Part shown: piece after piece, positions 8,557-24,763 of the stretch
Position numbering within the stretch: the stretch's first letter is position 1
Layout: each line of letters opens with the position of its first letter
Virus record (IMG/VR): IMGVR_UViG_3300040985_001906
Location: 1-38,057 of that record
Origin: a virus
Taxonomy: Duplodnaviria; Caudoviricetes
DNA: 38,057 nucleotides
Strand: one strand, 5' to 3'
Translations under genes and position numbers: made by a program
The notes under the pieces: model-generated
Database searches by the model: none
What the model was told of the DNA's origin: nothing
What the model saw: the letters and a program-made list of their open reading frames with translations, nothing else

Positions 8557-10505
8557 CCATAGAATACAAAGATAGTAAACGAATTATAACATCTCCTAGT
8601 TCAGCTACAAGTGTTCAAGGTTATAGTCAATTAAACGCTGGAACAAATGGGTGGAATATAGCTAGTGGTGCACTTGATGGAGAAAGATTATCATTACAAA
8701 TTGTTTCTGGATCTTCAATAATTGCTGATCCAATTAAAGAAATTAAAATGAAATTATCTAAAAATAGTTCCCCTACTGATACATTTTATGTCAGAGTTAG
8801 AAACAGTTCAGATACTATTCTTGCAGAAGCAAGTATGGATTCATCAACAATATCAGCAAGTTTAACAGAATATACTTTCACACTTAATACAGGTGTAATA
8901 TTGGCACAAGGGGATAGAATAAATGCTGAATATACAGGCTCATCTGGATCTGGAAATGTAAGTTGTGGAGTAAATAATGCAACAGAACCCTCTACTGTAA
9001 ATTGTCAAAAATATGACGGTAGTAGTTATTCAGATATAGATAGAACTCCAGATTGGCAATTTGATTCTAGTCCATCAACTACAATATCAATACTTCAAGA
9101 TAAACCAACTGACGTACAAGACAATTCCATTCTAGTAGAGAAAGATACTGCTAAGAGATATTGGTCTACATCAGCACCAACATTTGAAGATGATTTTACA
9201 AGTGATAAAGGTTGGGCAGAATCAGGAACTGAATTTACTATAGATACATCAACAAATCATAGAATAGACTTTGCTTTAAAAAGAGATGGTGCTGATCATG
9301 AAGTCTATAAGGATTTAACATCTGTAAGTGATACTGCTTGGGTATTGCGTATGCACTTAAATTTTACAGGTAATACTAATGCTGATTCTTACGATTCTCA
9401 AACATTCTTTGGATTATCTTCTACAAATGGAGCTTACTCAGGAACACAAGACGCCATAGGTTTAGAGATAAGATGGGGAATTGATGATGATTATAAAACT
9501 GGAAGTGCAAATGGATCATTATTACCTTTTGATAACACAAGCACTTTTAGTACAGCATTTACTTCAACTGATGAATATTGGGTAGAAATTATTAGAGAAT
9601 CAGAAACATCATTTACTATTGAATTATTTAGTGATTCTACATATACAACAAGTGTTGAAAAAGTAACAGAAACAACATCATCAGGAGTTTCAGGACTTCA
9701 ATATATTGTAGGTAAAATGAGAAGTAGTTCAAGTAGAGCAGAAATACAAAATGGTTATTTAGATGATATTGAATTTTACAATGGTGTAACAACAGCAACA
9801 CCTATTACTACTTGGACTCCTAGTTATCCTGATGATATATCAAATTTATACGCTTGGTATGATGCTAATGATTCAACAACAATTACAAAATCATCCGATA
9901 GGGTATCTGCATGGACAAATAAAGAGGGAACATCTGTCAGAGATTTAAATCAAGGCACATCAGGATCACAACCATTATGGGTATCAGCAGATAAAAATGG
10001 TAAAGATGTCATTGATTTTGCTTCAAGTCGTTATATACTTACTGATGCAAATTTAACCTCTGTATCTTCTGCAACAACTACATTTATTGTAACTCAAATA
10101 CCAGCTAGTAGTGTTAATATTAATCATAGTATGTCAAATAGAAATAACACTACATGGCATCCACTTTACAAAGAAGATAATAATAGTATAAGGGTTTCAA
10201 ATACTTCGGGTGGAGCTTATGTCATAGATAACCCACCAAGTTTGGAATCTTGGACTTATGCAACCATTATAGCAAATGGAACATCAGGATTTGTTAGAAC
10301 CAATGGAGTATTAGAGACAACCGTTCCTACTTCTCCTACTGGATCAGCTAATGCTTTTGTAGGTCTATCAGTAGGAAGATATGAATCTATAGCAGGAAGT
10401 TATTGGAATGAAAAAATTGCAGAAATAATTATTTATGATAGATTACTAACCACATCTGAAATAGAAGGTGTAGAAGCATATCTAAAGGTTAAATGGGGAT
10501 TATAA
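8553..10505 (+). CDS. Modular adhesin 2 (split scaffold, modules, C-terminal LamG-like domain)
   Basis: ATG 8553 overlaps the previous TGA; LYAWYDA...IAEIIIYDRLL...YLKVKWGL C-terminal domain. Confidence 0.65.
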   Translation: MTIEYKDSKRIITSPSSATSVQGYSQLNAGTNGWNIASGALDGERLSLQIVSGSSIIADPIKEIKMKLSKNSSPTDTFYVRVRNSSDTILAEASMDSSTISASLTEYTFTLNTGVILAQGDRINAEYTGSSGSGNVSCGVNNATEPSTVNCQKYDGSSYSDIDRTPDWQFDSSPSTTISILQDKPTDVQDNSILVEKDTAKRYWSTSAPTFEDDFTSDKGWAESGTEFTIDTSTNHRIDFALKRDGADHEVYKDLTSVSDTAWVLRMHLNFTGNTNADSYDSQTFFGLSSTNGAYSGTQDAIGLEIRWGIDDDYKTGSANGSLLPFDNTSTFSTAFTSTDEYWVEIIRESETSFTIELFSDSTYTTSVEKVTETTSSGVSGLQYIVGKMRSSSSRAEIQNGYLDDIEFYNGVTTATPITTWTPSYPDDISNLYAWYDANDSTTITKSSDRVSAWTNKEGTSVRDLNQGTSGSQPLWVSADKNGKDVIDFASSRYILTDANLTSVSSATTTFIVTQIPASSVNINHSMSNRNNTTWHPLYKEDNNSIRVSNTSGGAYVIDNPPSLESWTYATIIANGTSGFVRTNGVLETTVPTSPTGSANAFVGLSVGRYESIAGSYWNEKIAEIIIYDRLLTTSEIEGVEAYLKVKWGL

Positions 10506-10762
10506 TGAGCCAAGAATACTATGACCACTTAAACGAGGGGGAAAAATATTTCTGTGATAAATGTCAAGTGGCAACACTAGGAGCTCACGAATATGAACAA
10601 TATATCGTAATGCAATATCATTACTGTGAGCCATGTTGGAACTATGTCCATCTAAAGAAAGGCACTTGTGATAAATGTGGTAGTAAAATGACCAATAGAA
10701 GTGAACAGGGAAAAACTTCTGTTGTATGCAGTTGTGGAAATGAGGTAGAGTTAAAATGGTAG
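10505..10762 (+). CDS. Small multi-CxxC zinc-binding protein
   Basis: CDKC, CEPC, CDKC, CSC; TAATG overlap with the upstream gene. Confidence 0.6.
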   Translation: MSQEYYDHLNEGEKYFCDKCQVATLGAHEYEQYIVMQYHYCEPCWNYVHLKKGTCDKCGSKMTNRSEQGKTSVVCSCGNEVELKW

Positions 10763-11547
10763 AATACCTCGCAGGAAATAGGATAAGAGGAACTAATTCT
10801 GAAAGAGAATCTAATGCTACTTTAACATTTAGTGATGATTTCTCATCTGATAATGCAACTGACCAACATGCAAATATAGGAGTTGCAAATAATAGATGGG
10901 AATTTGATTTTCAACGTAGTGGTAGTAATGAATCAAGTGCATTAACTTTAAGTTCTGCATTAAGTAATACATGGTGTATGGACTTTGATTTTTATTTAAA
11001 TGCTGTAACTTTGGGTAATACAGCAGGTTGGTTTGCAGTAAGTAACGAAGATGAAACAAGCAGTAGAAGTGGAACTTCAAAACACTCTGTATATGTTTGT
11101 TTTGGAGGTGGTTCTGGAACTGATGATAATATATTTTTACGTTCTACATATAATAGTAGTATGTCAAATGGAGATAATGGTACAGCAGCTTTTTCATTAA
11201 CTACAGATAATGCAGATTTAACTACTCATTTTTGTAGAATGATAAGAGATGGAACAGTTATTAAATTAATATTTTACACAACAATAGATAGAACAACAGT
11301 ATCAGAAACCTTAGAAACCACCATTAACTCTAGTGCAACAGGATTACAATATATTGTACTTCATAATTTTGATAATTTTAGTGGACATTCTGGAACATTA
11401 ACAGGATATATTGATAATATTAAAATATATGATACAGTAACATCTCCTATAATATATCCTCTAAATGTAGTAGATGGCTCAATTTTCTATGAAACTGACA
11501 ATAACAAAGAATACATTCTATACGATAGTACTTGGACTGAATTATAG
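10756..11547 (+). CDS. Modular adhesin 3 (split scaffold plus one module)
   Basis: YLAGNRIRG ... GSIFYETDNNKEY..WTEL; SD-like GAGGT upstream. Confidence 0.65.
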   Translation: MVEYLAGNRIRGTNSERESNATLTFSDDFSSDNATDQHANIGVANNRWEFDFQRSGSNESSALTLSSALSNTWCMDFDFYLNAVTLGNTAGWFAVSNEDETSSRSGTSKHSVYVCFGGGSGTDDNIFLRSTYNSSMSNGDNGTAAFSLTTDNADLTTHFCRMIRDGTVIKLIFYTTIDRTTVSETLETTINSSATGLQYIVLHNFDNFSGHSGTLTGYIDNIKIYDTVTSPIIYPLNVVDGSIFYETDNNKEYILYDSTWTEL

Positions 11548-14329: not shown

Positions 14330-14426
14330 ATGTTATGAACTTGACTTTGTAATTTTTAAACAAAAGTATGGGAAAAATACATCAAGACAGTTATGTAATT
14401 TAATCAGGGAATCACTAAAGGAATGA
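14301..14426 (+). CDS. 41-aa possible ribbon-helix-helix regulator (not in ORF track)
   Basis: MMKHHTYIPKCYELDFVIFKQKYGKNTSRQLCNLIRESLKE; stop overlaps the MTase ATG (ATGA). Confidence 0.45.
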   Translation: MMKHHTYIPKCYELDFVIFKQKYGKNTSRQLCNLIRESLKE

Positions 14427-14944
14427 ACTTTCCAGATAAGAAATATAATATCATCTATGCTGATCCTGCATGGAGTTATAATGAGAATTGGGGGAATGGT
14501 TGTGTTAAACATCATTATGAAACAACAGGTATAGAACAAATGAAACAATTACCTATATCAGATTTAGCTGATGATAATTGTTATTTGTATATGTGGTACA
14601 CTAATCCTTTTGTTCAAGAAGCTTTAGAATTAGTAAAGGCATGGGGATTCAAATATAAACAAACAGTTACATGGATTAAAACTTACAAAGACGGAACACC
14701 AATCATGGGGTTAGGTTATGATTTTAGAGTATGTACTGAGCATCTAATATTAGCAAAAAAAGGAACTTTGAAAAGACAAAGAAAAGATTTAAAAAATGTG
14801 TTATTTTCTCCTCAAAGAAAGCACTCACAAAAACCTGATGAAATGAGAGATTTGATTTTAGAACATATTGGAGACTTACCACGTATAGAATTATTTGCAA
14901 GGGAAAGAATAAATGGGTGGGATTCATGGGGTAACGAGTTATGA
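14423..14944 (+). CDS. MT-A70 family N6-adenine methyltransferase
   Basis: IIYADPAW, AWGFKY, TEHL, HSQKP, RIELFAR, GWDSWGNE. Confidence 0.92.
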   Translation: MNFPDKKYNIIYADPAWSYNENWGNGCVKHHYETTGIEQMKQLPISDLADDNCYLYMWYTNPFVQEALELVKAWGFKYKQTVTWIKTYKDGTPIMGLGYDFRVCTEHLILAKKGTLKRQRKDLKNVLFSPQRKHSQKPDEMRDLILEHIGDLPRIELFARERINGWDSWGNEL

Positions 14945-16614
14945 CATCATTTATAGATAAGGATGGAGAGACTTGTAATCTTTTAAAACTTGAGGAACTT
15001 AGGCCAATACATGAGAATGATCCTAACATACTACTACAGACCATAGTAGCAGGACAATCAGAGATAGAGCATTATGCCATCATGACAGTATATCAATGTC
15101 CAAACTGTACGCATGAAAAAATATATGAATATCCACAGGACTTTAAAGATTGGAGAGACATACCACAAAAGCACAGATGTGACAGATGCAACTTGGATTG
15201 TTTTCAGAAACAAGTAACCAAAGGACAACTACGCAAAGTCCTAATGACAGAACAGGGAGAGACTAACCCAATACATTTGACAGGATTCATCTATGGAGAT
15301 AACATTACAAAGATTCAGCCAGGAACTAAATTGAACTTACGTGGATTACTAAGGTCCAGAAAGAAAACAGTAAAGGACTTGACATATCACAGATTCTTTG
15401 ACATTAGCCAGTACAATTTCACAGATGAAAAACCTATCATACCAACTGAGGAAGAGATACAACAGTTTAAAGACTTGGATAAAACTGAGGTCATTAAATC
15501 ATTTGCTCCACATATTAGAAATATGTATCTTATCAAAGAGGGATTACTATTGACTTGTCTAGGTGGAGTACAAACACCAACAGCAAGAGGAGATATTAAC
15601 ACATTATTATTAGGAGATCCTGGATTAGCAAAGACTCAACTACTCAAGTTCGTTACGAACATAGTAAAGAAATCAGATTATGTATCAGGGAAATCAGCAA
15701 GTGGAGCAGGGTTATTCGGTGGAGTTGACAATTTATCAGACGGAACTCGTATAGGAAAGCCTGGATCAGTAACTCTATGTAACGGTGGAGTTGCAGCACT
15801 AGATGAGATTGAGAAGATGAATGAAACAGATAGGACATACTGCCATGAGATAATGGAATCACAACAGTTCAGCTTGAGAAAGATTGGTATTGATATTACA
15901 TGGGAGGTTAAGGTATCTATAATTGCTGCTGGAAATCCAAAGAAGAGTAGATGGAATCCCGAACTATCAATCAATGAGAATATCAACTTACCTGATTCGT
16001 TACTATCAAGATTTGGATTAGTATTTCTTGTAAGAGATATACCAAGTATGGATGATGATTTAGCAATAGCAAAACATATCATGCAGGTAAGAAGAGGAGA
16101 GATTACTACAGCATTGAACATAGAACAAATGACTAAATTCATAAACTATGCAAAGACTTTGAGTCCTGTAATACCTGATGATGTAGATGAAGTCTTGACA
16201 AAATGGTGGTCAGAGTTGAGACAGGTAAAACAAAAGGATGAATCATTGTCAGTTGACATTAGAACATATGAGGATCTATGTAGATTAACACAGGCATATA
16301 CAAGATTGGACTTGGAAGAGTTATCAACAAAGGACCATGCAAGTAGGGCAATCAAGATGTTAAATGATTCACTACAGACATTAGGAATGAGTACACCAGG
16401 AGAAAGAAACACAAGCATGATAGAACATATGGACAAGTCCACTTATATCAGATTTGTATTTACTGATCCTGTAACACATGATCAAGCAGTTGCAAAGCTT
16501 ATGGAAAGAAATATATGGTTTTCTACTGAGGAAAAAGCAGAAGCCGAGATTGACAAACTATTAAATAAAACTAACTCACTTATAGAGTCAGGAGGTAAAT
16601 TGATATGGGTATGA
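14941..16614 (+). CDS. mcm: MCM replicative helicase
   Basis: Zn finger CPNC/CDRC, RGDINTLLLGDPGLAKTQLL, LDEIEKM, AAGNP, LLSRFGL. Confidence 0.96.
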   Translation: MTSFIDKDGETCNLLKLEELRPIHENDPNILLQTIVAGQSEIEHYAIMTVYQCPNCTHEKIYEYPQDFKDWRDIPQKHRCDRCNLDCFQKQVTKGQLRKVLMTEQGETNPIHLTGFIYGDNITKIQPGTKLNLRGLLRSRKKTVKDLTYHRFFDISQYNFTDEKPIIPTEEEIQQFKDLDKTEVIKSFAPHIRNMYLIKEGLLLTCLGGVQTPTARGDINTLLLGDPGLAKTQLLKFVTNIVKKSDYVSGKSASGAGLFGGVDNLSDGTRIGKPGSVTLCNGGVAALDEIEKMNETDRTYCHEIMESQQFSLRKIGIDITWEVKVSIIAAGNPKKSRWNPELSINENINLPDSLLSRFGLVFLVRDIPSMDDDLAIAKHIMQVRRGEITTALNIEQMTKFINYAKTLSPVIPDDVDEVLTKWWSELRQVKQKDESLSVDIRTYEDLCRLTQAYTRLDLEELSTKDHASRAIKMLNDSLQTLGMSTPGERNTSMIEHMDKSTYIRFVFTDPVTHDQAVAKLMERNIWFSTEEKAEAEIDKLLNKTNSLIESGGKLIWV

Positions 16615-17588
16615 TTTATGGAGACGTATTGGATGGATTATCTAAGATTGAATCTAACAGTATAGATACAGTTATCTCTAGTCCTCCTTATTATGGTCTT
16701 AGAGATTATGGTAAAGAGGGCCAATGGGGATTAGAAGAAACACCTGAATTATATCTATTACATATGACAAGATTTATGGAACAAATTAAAAGAGTGTTAA
16801 AAGATAGTGGAACTTGTTGGATTAATCTTGGAGATACTTATGCAGGTAGTGGCAAAGGAGCATGGAAAGAAAAAAACAAATCAAAAGAAACACCTGAAAC
16901 AATACCTGACAAAAGGTATAAACTCAAAGAGGATGTTCCAAAAAAATCTAAATTAATGATACCTGAGAGGTTTGCCCTTAACTGTGTCATGGATGATTGG
17001 ATATTAAGAAATGATATAATATGGTATAAACGAAACAGGATGCCTTTTAGTGGTAAGGATAGATTTACCAATAGTTTTGAGCATATCTATTTCTTTGCTA
17101 AAAACAATAAATATTATTTTGATTTAGATCCAATAAGAGAAGTCTGTGTTACAGAATACAAACCATTTAATGTAAGAGTAAGAGACTCAGATAAAAATAG
17201 ATTTTTACAAGGAGCAACAGATGAAGAAGTTAAAAAATATAGAAAAAATTTAAACATACCTGGACAACAACCACATTCAAAAGATATGCAAAGACATAGT
17301 GGTATTTATGGACCAAATGGTAAATCCATGAATAATCCCAAAGGAAAGAATCCTGGAGATATGTGGGATATAACAGTTAAACCATTCAAAGGTTCACATT
17401 ATGCTACATTCCCTATTGACATACCATTAAGAATAATTAAATGTGCCTGTCCTAAAGACGGTTTAGTATTAGATCCATTCATGGGATCTGGAACAACTGC
17501 ACAAGCAGCACAACAGTTAGGCAGAGATTGGATAGGCATTGATATAGACAAAAGAAATGATGAGTTATTGAGGAAGAGACTTGGGTAA
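16605..17588 (+). CDS. Beta-class N4-cytosine/N6-adenine DNA methyltransferase
   Basis: SPPY near the N-terminus, HYATFP, VLDPFMGSGTT near the C-terminus. Confidence 0.95.
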   Translation: MGMIYGDVLDGLSKIESNSIDTVISSPPYYGLRDYGKEGQWGLEETPELYLLHMTRFMEQIKRVLKDSGTCWINLGDTYAGSGKGAWKEKNKSKETPETIPDKRYKLKEDVPKKSKLMIPERFALNCVMDDWILRNDIIWYKRNRMPFSGKDRFTNSFEHIYFFAKNNKYYFDLDPIREVCVTEYKPFNVRVRDSDKNRFLQGATDEEVKKYRKNLNIPGQQPHSKDMQRHSGIYGPNGKSMNNPKGKNPGDMWDITVKPFKGSHYATFPIDIPLRIIKCACPKDGLVLDPFMGSGTTAQAAQQLGRDWIGIDIDKRNDELLRKRLG

Positions 17589-21342: not shown

Positions 21343-21350
21343 GAAAGAGG

Positions 21351-21611
21351 AAAAATTTCTACCTACTATATAACGCCTAAAAGGTTGGTCCTGGATTACG
21401 GTAAAATAAAGTACAGTACGGTACTCCCCCTTACTGTCATATACCTAATATAAATGTTTCCACCAGGGAAAGCTTTATAATATAGGACCTGGCGAATATC
21501 CAGGACCTGGCGAATATCCAGGGGGGGTACTATAGAAATATCATTTTATCAAATTTTCCAGTAATCAAACAATAACAAGTAATAATAAAAAAAATTTCTA
21601 CCTACTATATA
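21351..21611. repeat. 22-bp direct repeat AAAAATTTCTACCTACTATATA (21351-21372, 21590-21611)
   Basis: Two exact copies in non-coding DNA. Confidence 0.85.
21484..21530. repeat. 18-bp tandem AGGACCTGGCGAATATCC x2 followed by G7-TAC
   Basis: Directly visible; each unit forms CCTGG-N7-CCAGG. Confidence 0.9.
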
Positions 21612-21925
21612 GAACATAAAATTTTTTTGAAATCTTTTTGATATTTAAAGATTACTTTTATTAAAGTATTTTGTATGGATAATAAGCATAGTATGCAAAC
21701 TAAGCATACAATTAGAAAATTTAGATAAAATATTCTAAAGTCTTTATTTTTTCAAATACTAAACAAATACGCAAGATCGGCATAATGTTTTTTAAATTTC
21801 TTAATTCGTATAGAAACTATGAAAACTATATAGATCAATATAGATATTAAGCTTACTAATTACACATTTTGTCAAATTAATCTACATTAAATCTTTATAT
21901 CAAAACTATACGCATACTTAGAGTA

Positions 21926-22129
21926 ATGAAAGTTCAATCATCAAATAAACAAGAATGGTATAATGTAACTTGCGATCAATGTACGTGCCCAGATTTTACT
22001 TTTAGAGATAAAGCACAAAATCGTTTAAGTTGTAAATGTGGAAAAACCTTTGAGTGCAAACTATGTTCTTGTAAGCATCAAAGAGAAAATATAGATCAGT
22101 TAAAAATTGAGGCTTTAGAAAATGAGTGA
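21926..22129 (+). CDS. SWIM zinc-finger protein
   Basis: YNV..CTCPDF...CKH; CTTTATAT about 30 nt upstream. Confidence 0.8.
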   Translation: MKVQSSNKQEWYNVTCDQCTCPDFTFRDKAQNRLSCKCGKTFECKLCSCKHQRENIDQLKIEALENE

Positions 22130-23531
22130 AATATTAAAAATTAAAGATTCAACTTTAGGAAGTACAAAATATATTTTAACTGGCAAACAGCACATAAAAT
22201 TTTTAGGTTTAGAGCTTGAAGGAAGGTACAAAAATGGTCATTCAGAATTAAAAGGAGATTCAAGCGTTGAAGGTTTTGATACTGATTATAATGAATGTGA
22301 AGGTTATTGTAGAGATAATTGTGAATGTTCATCTTATTGTGAATGTGAATCATGTCAAGTATGTGATCAATGTGAAAAATCTTTAGATGAATGTGTATGT
22401 GAATCATGTTTAAAATGTAATGATTGTAATAATGGCTATTCAGATTGTGAATGTGAAATTGAGAAAATATGCGATAATAAAGAATGTGATCCAATGGATC
22501 GATGTAATGAATGTATTGAATCATTCCAAGAATTACAAGATTTAACACATGACTGTAGATATTTCGGTAATACTTACAATAATTGCTGTTTAGATTGTTC
22601 TTGTATCTGTCAATGTGAATGTAATTGTGAAAATAATAATGAAGTTGGTGAAGTATCTAGTCCAAAATTAAAAGTAAATGAAGCTAAAGATTGGATTTTA
22701 AATAATTATCCCGATGAACATAATTCAACTTGTGGATTACATATACATTTGAGTTTTTTAGATGATAAACAAGCTTATCACATTATATCAACTAAAAGAT
22801 TTTATGATCATTTTATGAAGGAAATAAGACAATGGAGTATAGACAGAAAAATTAATGATTATTCAAGATTCATAAAAAGACTAAATGGCGTAAAGTATTC
22901 TTTAGATGAATACCATGCTGATCAGCAAATAATATCAGAATGTGAAACTCGTTATACGCATCTTAATTATTGTTATAATAAATTTACAGATAATAATCAC
23001 GAATTTGGTACGGTTGAAATTCGTGTAGGTACGGTTTTTGATGATCCAAATTTATCAGTCGAATATGTGCATAAAGTAATTCAGATATTTAATGAATATT
23101 TAGATAAAAATAAACCAAATAAATTCATTTATTCAAAATATGTAAAATTGAATAATGCTTACAATTTCACCCTTCATTTAGACATTGAACATAAAGAAAA
23201 AGGAATTGAAATATATGTTAAATCTGATAGATTCAATCAATTATATGATGTTGATAAACAAGATATTAAAAAAATTGAAGTTAATAATTATAAAATGACT
23301 TTTTTCAATTCAATGATTAATCATATTGATCAATCTGAAAATTTTGAATCTCTTAAAGTCTATAATTCGGAAAAAAATTGTTTTTTACCTAATTTTAATT
23401 TCTTAAAGTTGAAGGGTTTAAAAAATGGACAAAAATTCTTTATCAAGGGATTATACACGGAAAAACACATTGATAATTATTTGAGTTTAATAGATGATAA
23501 TTTAGAGTATTTCTGTAAGGAGTATTGTTAA
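22122..23531 (+). CDS. Putative amidoligase (COOH-NH2 ligase, glutamine synthetase/GCS fold) with Cys-rich insert
   Basis: GLELE, DSSV, GEVSSP, CGLHIHLS, RYTHLN, TVEIR motifs. Confidence 0.8.
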   Translation: MSEILKIKDSTLGSTKYILTGKQHIKFLGLELEGRYKNGHSELKGDSSVEGFDTDYNECEGYCRDNCECSSYCECESCQVCDQCEKSLDECVCESCLKCNDCNNGYSDCECEIEKICDNKECDPMDRCNECIESFQELQDLTHDCRYFGNTYNNCCLDCSCICQCECNCENNNEVGEVSSPKLKVNEAKDWILNNYPDEHNSTCGLHIHLSFLDDKQAYHIISTKRFYDHFMKEIRQWSIDRKINDYSRFIKRLNGVKYSLDEYHADQQIISECETRYTHLNYCYNKFTDNNHEFGTVEIRVGTVFDDPNLSVEYVHKVIQIFNEYLDKNKPNKFIYSKYVKLNNAYNFTLHLDIEHKEKGIEIYVKSDRFNQLYDVDKQDIKKIEVNNYKMTFFNSMINHIDQSENFESLKVYNSEKNCFLPNFNFLKLKGLKNGQKFFIKGLYTEKHIDNYLSLIDDNLEYFCKEYC

Positions 23532-23532
23532 T

Positions 23533-24390
23533 ATGTGCGTTATTTCTGTTATTGAGAATTTGGATCAAATACCATCTAAACAAACTACTGAATTAATGGA
23601 AAAAGCAAATAATGATGGTAATGGCTTTTGTAAATGGGATAAAAAACAAAAATGTATCTATATGAAAAAAGGTATAACATTAGATGAATTAAACGAGCTA
23701 ACAAATAAAGCAAAAAACGAGGGTAATTTATCAATGATTCAACATTATAGAATTGCTTCAAGTGGAAATAGTGAGAGTAAATTAAATACACATGGTTTTT
23801 TAATTGAAAATATGTCCAATAATGATTTAGAATGTCATACAAACAAAGATGTCTTTTTTCATAATGGTACGTTAGATATGGATAAGTTAAACGAAATAGC
23901 CATTAAAATTATGACTTTAAACAAATACGCTGTTTATCCTTCAAACCGTGATCAAACGGAAATTTCTGACAGTCGCTTAATGAGTTGGATATTGAATTAC
24001 GTTGATCATTCAATATTGAATCTATTTACAGATAATAATAAATTCGTAATAATGAATGGTAGATCAGGAAAAATTAAAAAATATGGATCATGGGATTTAG
24101 TAAAAGATGAAAATAACAATAATACATTAGTCACATCTAACAATTACTTTAAACAAACTTATTTTCAATATATTACTGATTTTTCATCTTATGACAATGA
24201 AAATTATATGAAATTTGTATCTAATGAAGAGAAAACAGAGATTAAAAGAGTATTAAAAAAATATAAAAATATTGGTTTAACTAAAGATCAAATATATGAG
24301 GAATATTTAGAGTATGGTATTAGCGTATATGACATTGAAGATCAGATCGAAAGTGAGTTAAAAATGAGTGAGAATAATTATGAGTATTGA
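23533..24390 (+). CDS. Class II (Ntn) glutamine amidotransferase
   Basis: Cys2 (MCVI), NNDGNG, HYRIAS, THGF, FHNG, SDS. Confidence 0.88.
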   Translation: MCVISVIENLDQIPSKQTTELMEKANNDGNGFCKWDKKQKCIYMKKGITLDELNELTNKAKNEGNLSMIQHYRIASSGNSESKLNTHGFLIENMSNNDLECHTNKDVFFHNGTLDMDKLNEIAIKIMTLNKYAVYPSNRDQTEISDSRLMSWILNYVDHSILNLFTDNNKFVIMNGRSGKIKKYGSWDLVKDENNNNTLVTSNNYFKQTYFQYITDFSSYDNENYMKFVSNEEKTEIKRVLKKYKNIGLTKDQIYEEYLEYGISVYDIEDQIESELKMSENNYEY

Positions 24391-24763
24391 AGAGGTAAAG
24401 ACATGGCAAATTGATCTTGAAATATCATTATTAACAACTATTACTATGCTTAACCAGCATGGAGTACCTTATGAAAATATTATAGATATGATTGAAATAT
24501 CAGTTAAAAATTGTTTAAGTAAATATGATAAGAATAGAGATTTATTGACTACGGTTTTTAAGAAATTAGAAAAAGAAAATAAAGAAATTACAGAAATAAG
24601 CATTAATGAATCAAATATTAATAATAATGAAATTATCACAAAAATAAATGAATGTGAGTATGATAAATTTCCTTTAAACTGTATATCTAGGGATTATTTA
24701 GAAAAAGATGATATTATGGAATGTTTTATCTTACACAAAGAAACAAGGAAGAGTAGGTTATAA
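24368..24763 (+). CDS. Hypothetical protein
   Basis: ORF coupled to both neighbours; true start possibly 24380. Confidence 0.6.
   Translation: MRIIMSIEEVKTWQIDLEISLLTTITMLNQHGVPYENIIDMIEISVKNCLSKYDKNRDLLTTVFKKLEKENKEITEISINESNINNNEIITKINECEYDKFPLNCISRDYLEKDDIMECFILHKETRKSRL

What the first reader, a model, noticed from the sequence alone, without database searches (positions are those of the whole stretch)
21926..24390. SWIM + amidoligase + class II glutamine amidotransferase operon in an archaeal virus
Seen: three coupled genes with intact-looking catalytic motifs, in an AT-rich block with its own TATA box. Known: COOH-NH2 ligase plus GATase-II pairs occur in bacterial phages and mobile elements, with proposed roles in peptide or envelope modification. 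The GATase supplies ammonia to the ATP-dependent ligase. Inference: in a host without peptidoglycan the substrate must be something else, such as S-layer glycan carboxylates (superinfection exclusion), a host protein recruited by the SWIM finger, or a metabolite. This is a candidate undescribed modification system.
Basis: partly seen in the sequence, partly recalled or inferred. Interest (0 to 1): 0.8.

Follow-up and report, generated by a model that had tools for sequence, protein, structure and literature searches.

The report
Three-part viral glutamyl ligase module
An uncultured marine virus that most likely infects archaea carries an amide-bond ligase and a glutamine-type hydrolase, a pair already known from phages, plus an unnamed third part that travels with them in many viruses and likely picks the target that the ligase would tag with glutamate.

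Summary
The three ORFs are real and tightly packed. The 469-aa protein has the glutamine-synthetase fold with its catalytic motifs, and the 285-aa protein is an N-terminal-Cys class II amidotransferase-type hydrolase. The hydrolase follows the ligase in 54 of 57 testable ligase clusters. The SWIM-like gene is not a core part: it lies near the ligase in 7 of 13 testable close lineages and in 0 of 44 other clusters. The conserved third part is an unnamed 135-150-residue domain ('X'). Here it is fused to the ligase's C-terminus; elsewhere it is the gene just upstream (fused or upstream in 50 of 57 clusters). X has 1,237 library clusters and no significant Pfam, PHROG or PDB match. This lineage also has a 120-residue, 29-Cys acidic insert inside the ligase and a helical tail on the hydrolase. 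Large phages carry up to 8 ligase copies. The ligase-amidotransferase pair is already in print, including for one putative archaeal virus. The substrate is unknown. Glutamyl tagging of a cytoplasmic target, with the hydrolase removing the tag, is my best reading (0.4); glutamine-fed amidation is close behind (0.3); S-layer modification is unlikely.

The parts
21343..21925 (+). Non-coding AT-rich leader. Relatives share short motifs whichever gene comes first.
21894..21900 (+). TATA-like TTTATAT about 29 nt before the first ATG; plausible promoter, not clearly above chance
   Evidence: (8.6% of 1000 shuffles)
21926..22129 (+). 67-aa SWIM-like zinc-finger gene (CxC...CxH with four extra Cys); accessory, not core
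22122..23531 (+). 469-aa GS/GCS-fold carboxylate-amine ligase (E31, E33, D46, E177, H207, H209, R253, R277, N282, E299, R301) with insert and fused domain X
22278..22637 (+). Cys-rich acidic insert, residues 53-172 (29 Cys, 30 D/E, 7 K/R), between the DxS and GE motifs; metal binding predicted from composition only
   Evidence: low model confidence
23121..23528 (+). Domain X, residues 334-469: unnamed alpha/beta domain, a separate upstream gene in other viruses
23533..24390 (+). 285-aa Ntn (class II GATase-type) hydrolase: C2, N26, H71, R73, S76, H87, H110-N111-G112, D146
24217..24387 (+). C-terminal three-helix tail of the hydrolase (residues 229-285), found only beside long-insert ligases; weak likeness to UBA-type bundles (Z 4-5.4)
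24368..24763 (+). Overlapping downstream ORF whose N-terminal ~70 residues recur in 9 close loci; role unknown, probably accessory

Best explanation
This is a conserved viral three-part module (domain X, a GS-fold ligase and an Ntn hydrolase) that likely works early in infection as a glutamyl-tagging system: the ligase would use ATP to join a glutamate gamma-carboxyl to an amine on a cytoplasmic target likely chosen by X, and the hydrolase would cut that gamma-glutamyl amide again. Shown: folds on predicted models, conserved catalytic residues, gene order, fusion of X, paralogue arrays. From established chemistry of the families: ATP-dependent acyl-phosphate formation, and Cys1 attack on a gamma-glutamyl amide. 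Inferred: early expression, glutamate as the acid, a protein as the amine partner, X as selector, the hydrolase as eraser. The Cys-rich insert and the hydrolase tail are likely host-specific add-ons of the archaeal-virus versions. SWIM is a passenger of the same variable region.
For: Ligase fold: VIA-align Z 10.8, rmsd 3.2, 173 aligned to glutamine synthetase; the top 19 rows are all GS, GCS, PafA or Dop. The superfamily motifs of PMC2588565 are invariant or nearly so in 30 ligases. The hydrolase keeps the nucleophile and the glutamyl-binding residues but has N-x-[HD]-G (Asn in 28 of 29 and 24 of 24 rows) where GlmS has R26-G27-Y-D and YafJ has H-K-D-G. Precedent: EgtA (gamma-Glu-Cys ligase) with EgtC, a class II GATase homologue that removes the glutamyl group (PMC9103826 passages); PafA is a GS-fold protein tagger. 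X is fused or just upstream in 50 of 57 clusters; all 14 stand-alone X matches in 20 whole records sit directly before a ligase; no X position that could be catalytic is invariant. Paralogue arrays: 5 ligases, 4 X and 3 hydrolases in G005; 8, 2 and 2 in G013, the solo ligases scattered among small variable genes. An array fits many targets better than one product. One phage X carries a weak L7/L12 C-terminal-like extension (E 0.005, below cut-off). No transmembrane segment in 61 ligases or in the window's proteins.
Against: No substrate was identified and nothing was assayed. The glutamyl-binding residues fit free glutamine equally well. Strict ligase-then-hydrolase coupling (54 of 57) is also what a glutamine-fed amidotransferase would show, and GatB/GatE are GS-fold enzymes that amidate a charged tRNA. 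Matching R253 to GlnA R321 is by eye; profile alignment recovered only the GxHxH strand. PMC2588565 favoured small-peptide synthesis over protein conjugation for the related family. X was not detected for 7 of 57 clusters, and one counted hit is weak (E 0.045). Loci were collected by ligase match, so linkage seen from X's side is tested only within those records. The role of Arg26 in coupling is recalled, not from a call.
Confidence: 0.4

Rival explanations
1. Glutamine-dependent amidation: the hydrolase releases ammonia from Gln and the ligase amidates a carboxylate on a cytoplasmic acceptor held by X, in a three-part layout like GatCAB.
For: Hydrolase directly downstream in 54 of 57 clusters, often with touching stop and start. 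Closest folds are the GlmS and PurF glutaminase domains (Z 10.5 and 9.8; EgtC 9.1). GatB/GatE belong to the same ligase superfamily.
Against: No Arg26-Gly27 motif. 6 of 8 ligases in G013 and 2 of 5 in G005 have no adjacent hydrolase. With free glutamate as the acid the cycle would be futile, so another acceptor is required and none is encoded nearby. No GatB row among the 50 fold matches listed, which does not exclude it.
Confidence: 0.3
2. Small-molecule pathway: the ligase gamma-glutamylates a metabolite amine, X acts on or binds the intermediate, and the hydrolase releases the product (EgtA/EgtB/EgtC logic).
For: EgtA/EgtC precedent; the proposal in PMC2588565 for the related family; L061 has the cassette directly after a phiEco32-type COOH-NH2_lig and GATase cluster, and L006 has a gamma-glutamyl cyclotransferase about 6 kb downstream.
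Against: X has no invariant residue and only G19, S26, N81 and G93 reach 90%; its better-conserved polar residues R15 and E30 are changed in the window's copy. No tailoring enzymes are linked. Arrays of up to 8 ligases are hard to explain with one product.
Confidence: 0.18
3. Envelope modification for superinfection exclusion (S-layer glycan in archaea, cell wall in bacteria), the idea in print for phage amidoligases.
For: Proposed in PMC11706807 and PMC10580990, untested there. Four close relatives carry a hexapeptide-repeat transferase gene before the leader.
Against: The same X-ligase-hydrolase module occurs in MCM-bearing and MCM-less viruses, whose hosts would not share an envelope polymer. 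No export or membrane segment. The window lacks that transferase gene. No copy was found in cellular genomes by two pattern scans, though prophages would be the usual carriers of exclusion genes.
Confidence: 0.06
4. Part of a viral DNA base-modification pathway.
For: Earlier scan notes describe GATase and amidoligase genes in thymine hypermodification islands of other phages (unchecked notes).
Against: No base-modification kinase, transferase or oxygenase among the window ORFs scanned or the 148 neighbouring proteins scanned. The genes lie apart from the replication block.
Confidence: 0.03

Closest known systems
Amidoligase_2 (PF12224) plus class II GATase neighbourhoods of phages and mobile elements (PMC2588565 sections read; PMC10580990 passages; Iyer et al. 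2009 not held, known here only through citing papers)
   Same: GS-fold ligase with GhExE, GxHxH, RY..N and ExR motifs next to an Ntn GATase-like protein; function unknown in both
   Different: The window's ligase has no Pfam hit; this clade has the dedicated partner X, a 29-Cys insert and a hydrolase tail; one member searched against 50,697 named phage records found nothing
Vyasavirus brisbanense amidoligase + GATase (PMC11706807, passages)
   Same: The pair reported in a virus assigned to Poseidoniales archaea, with a superinfection or secondary-metabolite proposal
phiEco32/LUZ24-type cluster (COOH-NH2_lig PF14395, GATase, ATP-grasp, cyclotransferase)
   Same: Viral amide-ligase cassette with a class II GATase; L061 carries both side by side
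   Different: The window has a single ligase and no PF14395, ATP-grasp or cyclotransferase gene among the ORFs scanned
EgtA/EgtC of ergothioneine synthesis, and PafA/Pup
   Same: GS/GCS-fold ligase paired with an Ntn de-glutamylase (EgtA/EgtC); GS-fold enzyme tagging proteins (PafA)
   Different: No EgtB/D/E genes, no proteasome operon and no small protein with a conserved G[EQ] end; X's last residue varies
GatCAB / GatDE
   Same: GS-fold enzyme with a glutamine-hydrolysing partner and a small third subunit (the subunit layout is recalled)
   Different: The partner here is an Ntn enzyme; no tRNA-binding domain is evident; fold matches are to GS and GCS

Membership tests
Carboxylate-amine/ammonia ligase superfamily (GS fold) | GS catalytic fold | tested here: met
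   VIA-align Z 10.8, rmsd 3.2, 173 residues, model range 12-332; Foldseek best E 0.011, top rows GS
Carboxylate-amine/ammonia ligase superfamily (GS fold) | GhExE on strand 1, acids on strands 2 and 3, [HD]x[NH] on strand 4, Ex[RK] on strand 6 (PMC2588565) | tested here: met
   G29-L-E31-L-E33, D46, E177, H207-x-H209, E299-x-R301; invariant or over 90% in 30 rows. The Asp two residues after the Arg is absent.
Carboxylate-amine/ammonia ligase superfamily (GS fold) | Arg in strand 5 and Arg in the loop before it | tested here: inconclusive
   R253 and R277 are invariant, but the strand-5 position looks to be N282; equivalence to GlnA R321/R339/R344 by eye only
Carboxylate-amine/ammonia ligase superfamily (GS fold) | ATP-dependent amide formation | not testable with these tools
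   needs an assay
Amidoligase_2 (PF12224) | Score over the Pfam cut-off | tested here: inconclusive
   Window protein: no hit. 6 of 17 close homologues hit at E<=0.1, best 5.5e-6; L067:3667 scores 27.7 against cut-off 22; Atlas row at 0.90 with 39% PF12224; top viral fold rows are named amidoligases. Best called a divergent sister clade.
Class II glutamine amidotransferase (Ntn) fold | Cys after the initiator Met, Ntn fold, HxR, HNG and D motifs | tested here: met
   Foldseek E 1.2e-4 to PurF; Z 10.5 to GlmS 1xff
GlmS/PurF-type amidotransferases | Arg26-Gly27 motif after the first helix | tested here: not met
   N-x-[HD]-G instead. That this Arg couples the two sites is recalled.
SWIM zinc finger (PF04434) | CxC-xn-CxH pattern (recalled) and Pfam score | tested here: inconclusive
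   Pattern present in 8 of 9 aligned copies, CxC...CYH in the ninth; Pfam hit only for L020, E 0.008, below cut-off
phiEco32-type amidoligase cluster | Second ligase PF14395, ATP-grasp and cyclotransferase beside the GATase | tested here: not met
   None among the window ORFs scanned
Pup/PafA protein-tagging system | Adjacent small protein ending in G[EQ] | tested here: not met
   X ends vary (Glu in 16 of the stand-alone proteins counted, 18 different end residues); the SWIM-like genes end in varied residues

The most novel reading that the evidence does not exclude
X-ligase-hydrolase is a virus-specific, reversible protein glutamylation system shared by bacterial and archaeal viruses: X (over 1,200 unnamed sequence clusters) selects a host protein such as a translation or defence factor, the ligase writes a gamma-glutamyl isopeptide and the hydrolase erases it. 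Archaeal viruses retargeted it with a 29-Cys metal-binding insert and a UBA-like tail, and large phages expanded it to many targets.
Probability: 0.25. Interest if true: 0.85.

Novelty: new variant of a known kind. Interest (0 to 1): 0.55.

Why it matters
Phage amidoligase-GATase pairs have been annotated since 2008-2009 without a known substrate. This clade is a minimal version with one ligase, one hydrolase and one dedicated partner. The 205-223-aa phage ligases, their 140-150-aa X and 195-215-aa hydrolases are small, with no predicted membrane segment, so the open question of what these enzymes make becomes directly testable. Presence in both archaeal-type and bacterial-type viruses argues against the cell-wall explanation in print. 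Domain X is a large unnamed family that can now be given a genomic partner.

Tried and rejected
Complex prediction of X + ligase + hydrolase from L008 with the hydrolase as partner: no answer, score 0.00 in two runs, controls not folded; not evidence either way. Direct Pfam/PHROG scans of the window's ligase and hydrolase gave no relevant hit; PDB sequence searches with A2, A3, A7 and A8 gave nothing meaningful. X: no significant match in PHROGs (29 members, best E 0.006), Pfam (137 members, 4 single weak hits) or Atlas features; Atlas structure rows had TM about 0.5 on a poor model; one VIA row over residues 333-458 (2ra8, Z 4.1) is too weak to name. Global profile alignment to GlnA and YbdK failed. 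X as a Pup-like tag was rejected (variable C-termini, fused copy). SWIM as a core subunit was rejected. The 135-aa minus-strand ORF 22141-22548 is taken as a shadow of the Cys-rich insert. Literature: nine searches gave no listing that describes X, the insert or a tested function; I read passages or sections of seven papers only. Iyer et al. 2009 is not held and may mention such neighbours. The two supplements of PMC11706807 held as text had no hit, and its gene table (Table S13) was not seen. Supplements of the bioRxiv survey of Nitrososphaeria viruses were not seen; its main text has no 'amidoligase'.

Full report
Setting. The window is a whole 38,057-base virus record with a 93-nt terminal repeat, one mismatch. 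It encodes terminase, portal, a protease-capsid fusion and tail proteins, plus an MCM helicase (Pfam E 1e-57) and an archaeal Holliday-junction resolvase (E 2e-8). All but one of the 20 MCM matches among named records are archaeal viruses, at 20-31% identity. An archaeal host is therefore likely. The lineage was not determined; many of the close relatives come from contigs labelled marine.

Observation. The three ORFs exist as described, with an 8-nt overlap and a 1-nt gap. They follow a 583-nt non-coding leader and are AT-rich (GC 0.257 against 0.345). The same drop of 8-11 points is seen in L001, L026, L035 and L038, but not in more distant carriers, where the module is as rich or richer in GC. 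The TATA-like TTTATA at 21894 is well placed, but 8.6% of shuffles give one and it is not a conserved column in 12 aligned leaders.

The ligase. Neither enzyme gene hits a relevant Pfam or PHROG family directly. The 469-aa model (mean pLDDT 72) matches glutamine synthetase at Z 10.8, and the first 19 rows are GS, GCS, PafA and Dop. Six of 17 close homologues hit Amidoligase_2 weakly, and the top viral fold rows are named amidoligases. The superfamily motifs listed in PMC2588565 (section read) are present and invariant or nearly so in 30 diverse ligases. Between the DxS and GE motifs lies a 120-residue insert with 29 Cys, 30 acidic and 7 basic residues. Four relatives keep 28-29 of those 29 Cys while about half of the insert's residues change, so the Cys pattern is under selection. 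Of 53 ligases measured, 20 have 18 or more Cys in this span.

The hydrolase. The 285-aa model (pLDDT 83) matches PurF (E 1.2e-4) and the GlmS glutaminase domain (Z 10.5), with EgtC at 9.1. Cys2, HxR, HNG and SD are conserved. After the first helix the family has N-x-[HD]-G, where GlmS has R26-G27-Y-D and YafJ has H-K-D-G. A three-helix tail (229-285) resembles UBA-type bundles only weakly (Z 4-5.4) and was detected only beside long-insert ligases.

The real unit. Pattern scans gave 94 loci, which with the window hold 104 ligase ORFs in 61 clusters at 90% identity; one frameshifted gene, L075, counts twice. A hydrolase follows within 800 nt in 54 of 57 testable clusters. The profile of the window's clade alone matched separate 140-240-aa genes upstream of distant ligases (E down to 1e-8); these match the window's C-terminal residues 334-469, domain X. 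X is fused or upstream in 50 of 57 testable clusters, one of them weak at E 0.045. This count is partly circular, so two further checks matter. Six of 10 ligase clusters fetched after the first X profile was built have X by that profile. In 20 whole records, all 14 stand-alone X matches lie directly before a ligase, including one outside the stretches used. These records were chosen for their ligase, so X-side linkage is not tested without bias. The X profile finds 1,237 clusters at 50% identity (382 at E<=1e-10) and nothing significant in Pfam, PHROGs or the PDB. The fused form is one clade on a 57-row tree (100/100, 16 rows, one of them cut short by its contig end).

SWIM. Eight other loci carry a homologue. 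Among close lineages with enough flank it is present in 7 of 13: directly upstream in 4, one gene away in 2 (L022/L023, L039), downstream in 1 (L041). It is absent from L001, L017/L024, L025, L026, L032 and L035 and was not found beside any of the 44 other clusters, some of which have short flanks. It is conserved as a protein (7 of 8 Cys kept) but is not a fixed part of the module.

Range. MCM is found in 4 of 20 records (G001, G004, G006, G020; E 1e-35 to 1e-76). The same family search also rings in all 14 control genomes, so the call rests on strength and length of match. G001, G004 and G006 have the long insert, G020 a short one. L009 and L006 also carry RadA. Six records at least 90% complete lack MCM and lack the long insert; I take these as bacterial phages, which is inference. 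Module GC runs from 0.26 to 0.69. G005 (121 kb) has 5 ligases, 4 X and 3 hydrolases; G013 (150 kb) has 8, 2 and 2, with solo and partly degenerate ligases among small variable genes. Two scans of species-representative cellular genomes and one of named phages found nothing; these scans need exact short patterns or close similarity and can miss relatives.

Mechanism. The chemistry of the two folds limits the options: the ligase makes an acyl-phosphate and then an amide, and the hydrolase cleaves a gamma-glutamyl amide. Either the hydrolase feeds ammonia to the ligase or it undoes the ligase's product. I favour the second slightly, for three reasons: the YafJ-like loop, the EgtA/EgtC precedent (PMC9103826 passages), and the many ligases without a hydrolase. 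A protein target is suggested by the dedicated, non-catalytic-looking X, by the paralogue arrays, and by a weak L7/L12-like extension on one X. Against this, tight coupling fits ammonia transfer equally well, GatB/GatE are a precedent for it, and PMC2588565 argued for small peptides in the related family. The envelope reading is weakened by the cross-domain range and the absence of membrane segments.

Known and new. The ligase-GATase pair is described in PMC2588565, reported in over 30 marine phage genomes in PMC10580990 (passages), in a deep-sea phage in PMC10945688 (passages), and in the putative Poseidoniales virus Vyasavirus in PMC11706807 (passages). That paper itself notes a peptidoglycan amidase in the genome, so the window may be a firmer archaeal case; that is my inference. 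PMC7824862 (passages) does not discuss this family. I found no description of X, of its fusion, of the insert or of the arrays in nine searches, with Iyer et al. 2009 unread. Verdict: a new variant of a known, still unsolved kind; interest 0.55.

Noticed in passing
G013:C1:93365-126878 (L083, L099, L100): A 150-kb phage with 8 ligase paralogues: two full X-ligase-hydrolase cassettes and six solo copies, some lacking the DxS or RY motif; a second weak X-like gene (E 0.034) precedes one X.
   Followed up: partly
L008:9435-19260 and L101:5335-6814 (G005); L067:2954-8169: Tandem cassettes; G005 also has an L7/L12 C-terminal-domain protein (L008:17986-18321, E 2e-6) and a proteasome-type subunit nearby.
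   Followed up: partly
L061:56-5080; L063:1-3606: The cassette directly follows a phiEco32-type cluster (COOH-NH2_lig and a second GATase in L061, then a gene that looks like an ATP-grasp by eye).
   Followed up: partly
L072:2434-3585; L067:610-2489 and 9628-11184: RtcB RNA ligase just upstream of the cassette in L072; NUDIX, pyrimidine-dimer glycosylase and poly(A)-polymerase-type genes around it in L067.
   Followed up: no
L006:14677-18183; L009:13456-20378: Second archaeal-type virus group with long-insert ligase, AAA_5 plus VWA pair, RadA and MCM; L006 has a gamma-glutamyl cyclotransferase. The gene upstream of their ligases may be a very divergent X (E 0.045 in L006, not significant in L009, L011, L046).
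   Followed up: partly
window 21484-21519; 21351-21382 and 21590-21621: Perfect 18-nt tandem repeat and a 32-nt direct repeat (88%) in the leader; possible origin or packaging signals.
   Followed up: no
window 14423-17588: MCM flanked by an MT-A70 methyltransferase and an N6/N4 DNA methylase.
   Followed up: no
L001:4482-7025 against window 14941-16614: A related virus (terminase 49% identical) uses a primase-polymerase-MCM fusion where the window has a plain MCM, yet keeps the same fused ligase module.
   Followed up: partly
L026:4234-5623; also L019, L025, L035: Hexapeptide-repeat transferase gene (in L026 preceded by a gene that looks like a polysaccharide deacetylase by eye) just before the leader; absent from the window.
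   Followed up: no
L075:976-1532: Ligase split into two overlapping frames (frameshift or assembly error).
   Followed up: no
L063:940-1734: A 264-aa gene that looks like a homing endonuclease by eye is inserted on the opposite strand between X and the ligase.
   Followed up: no
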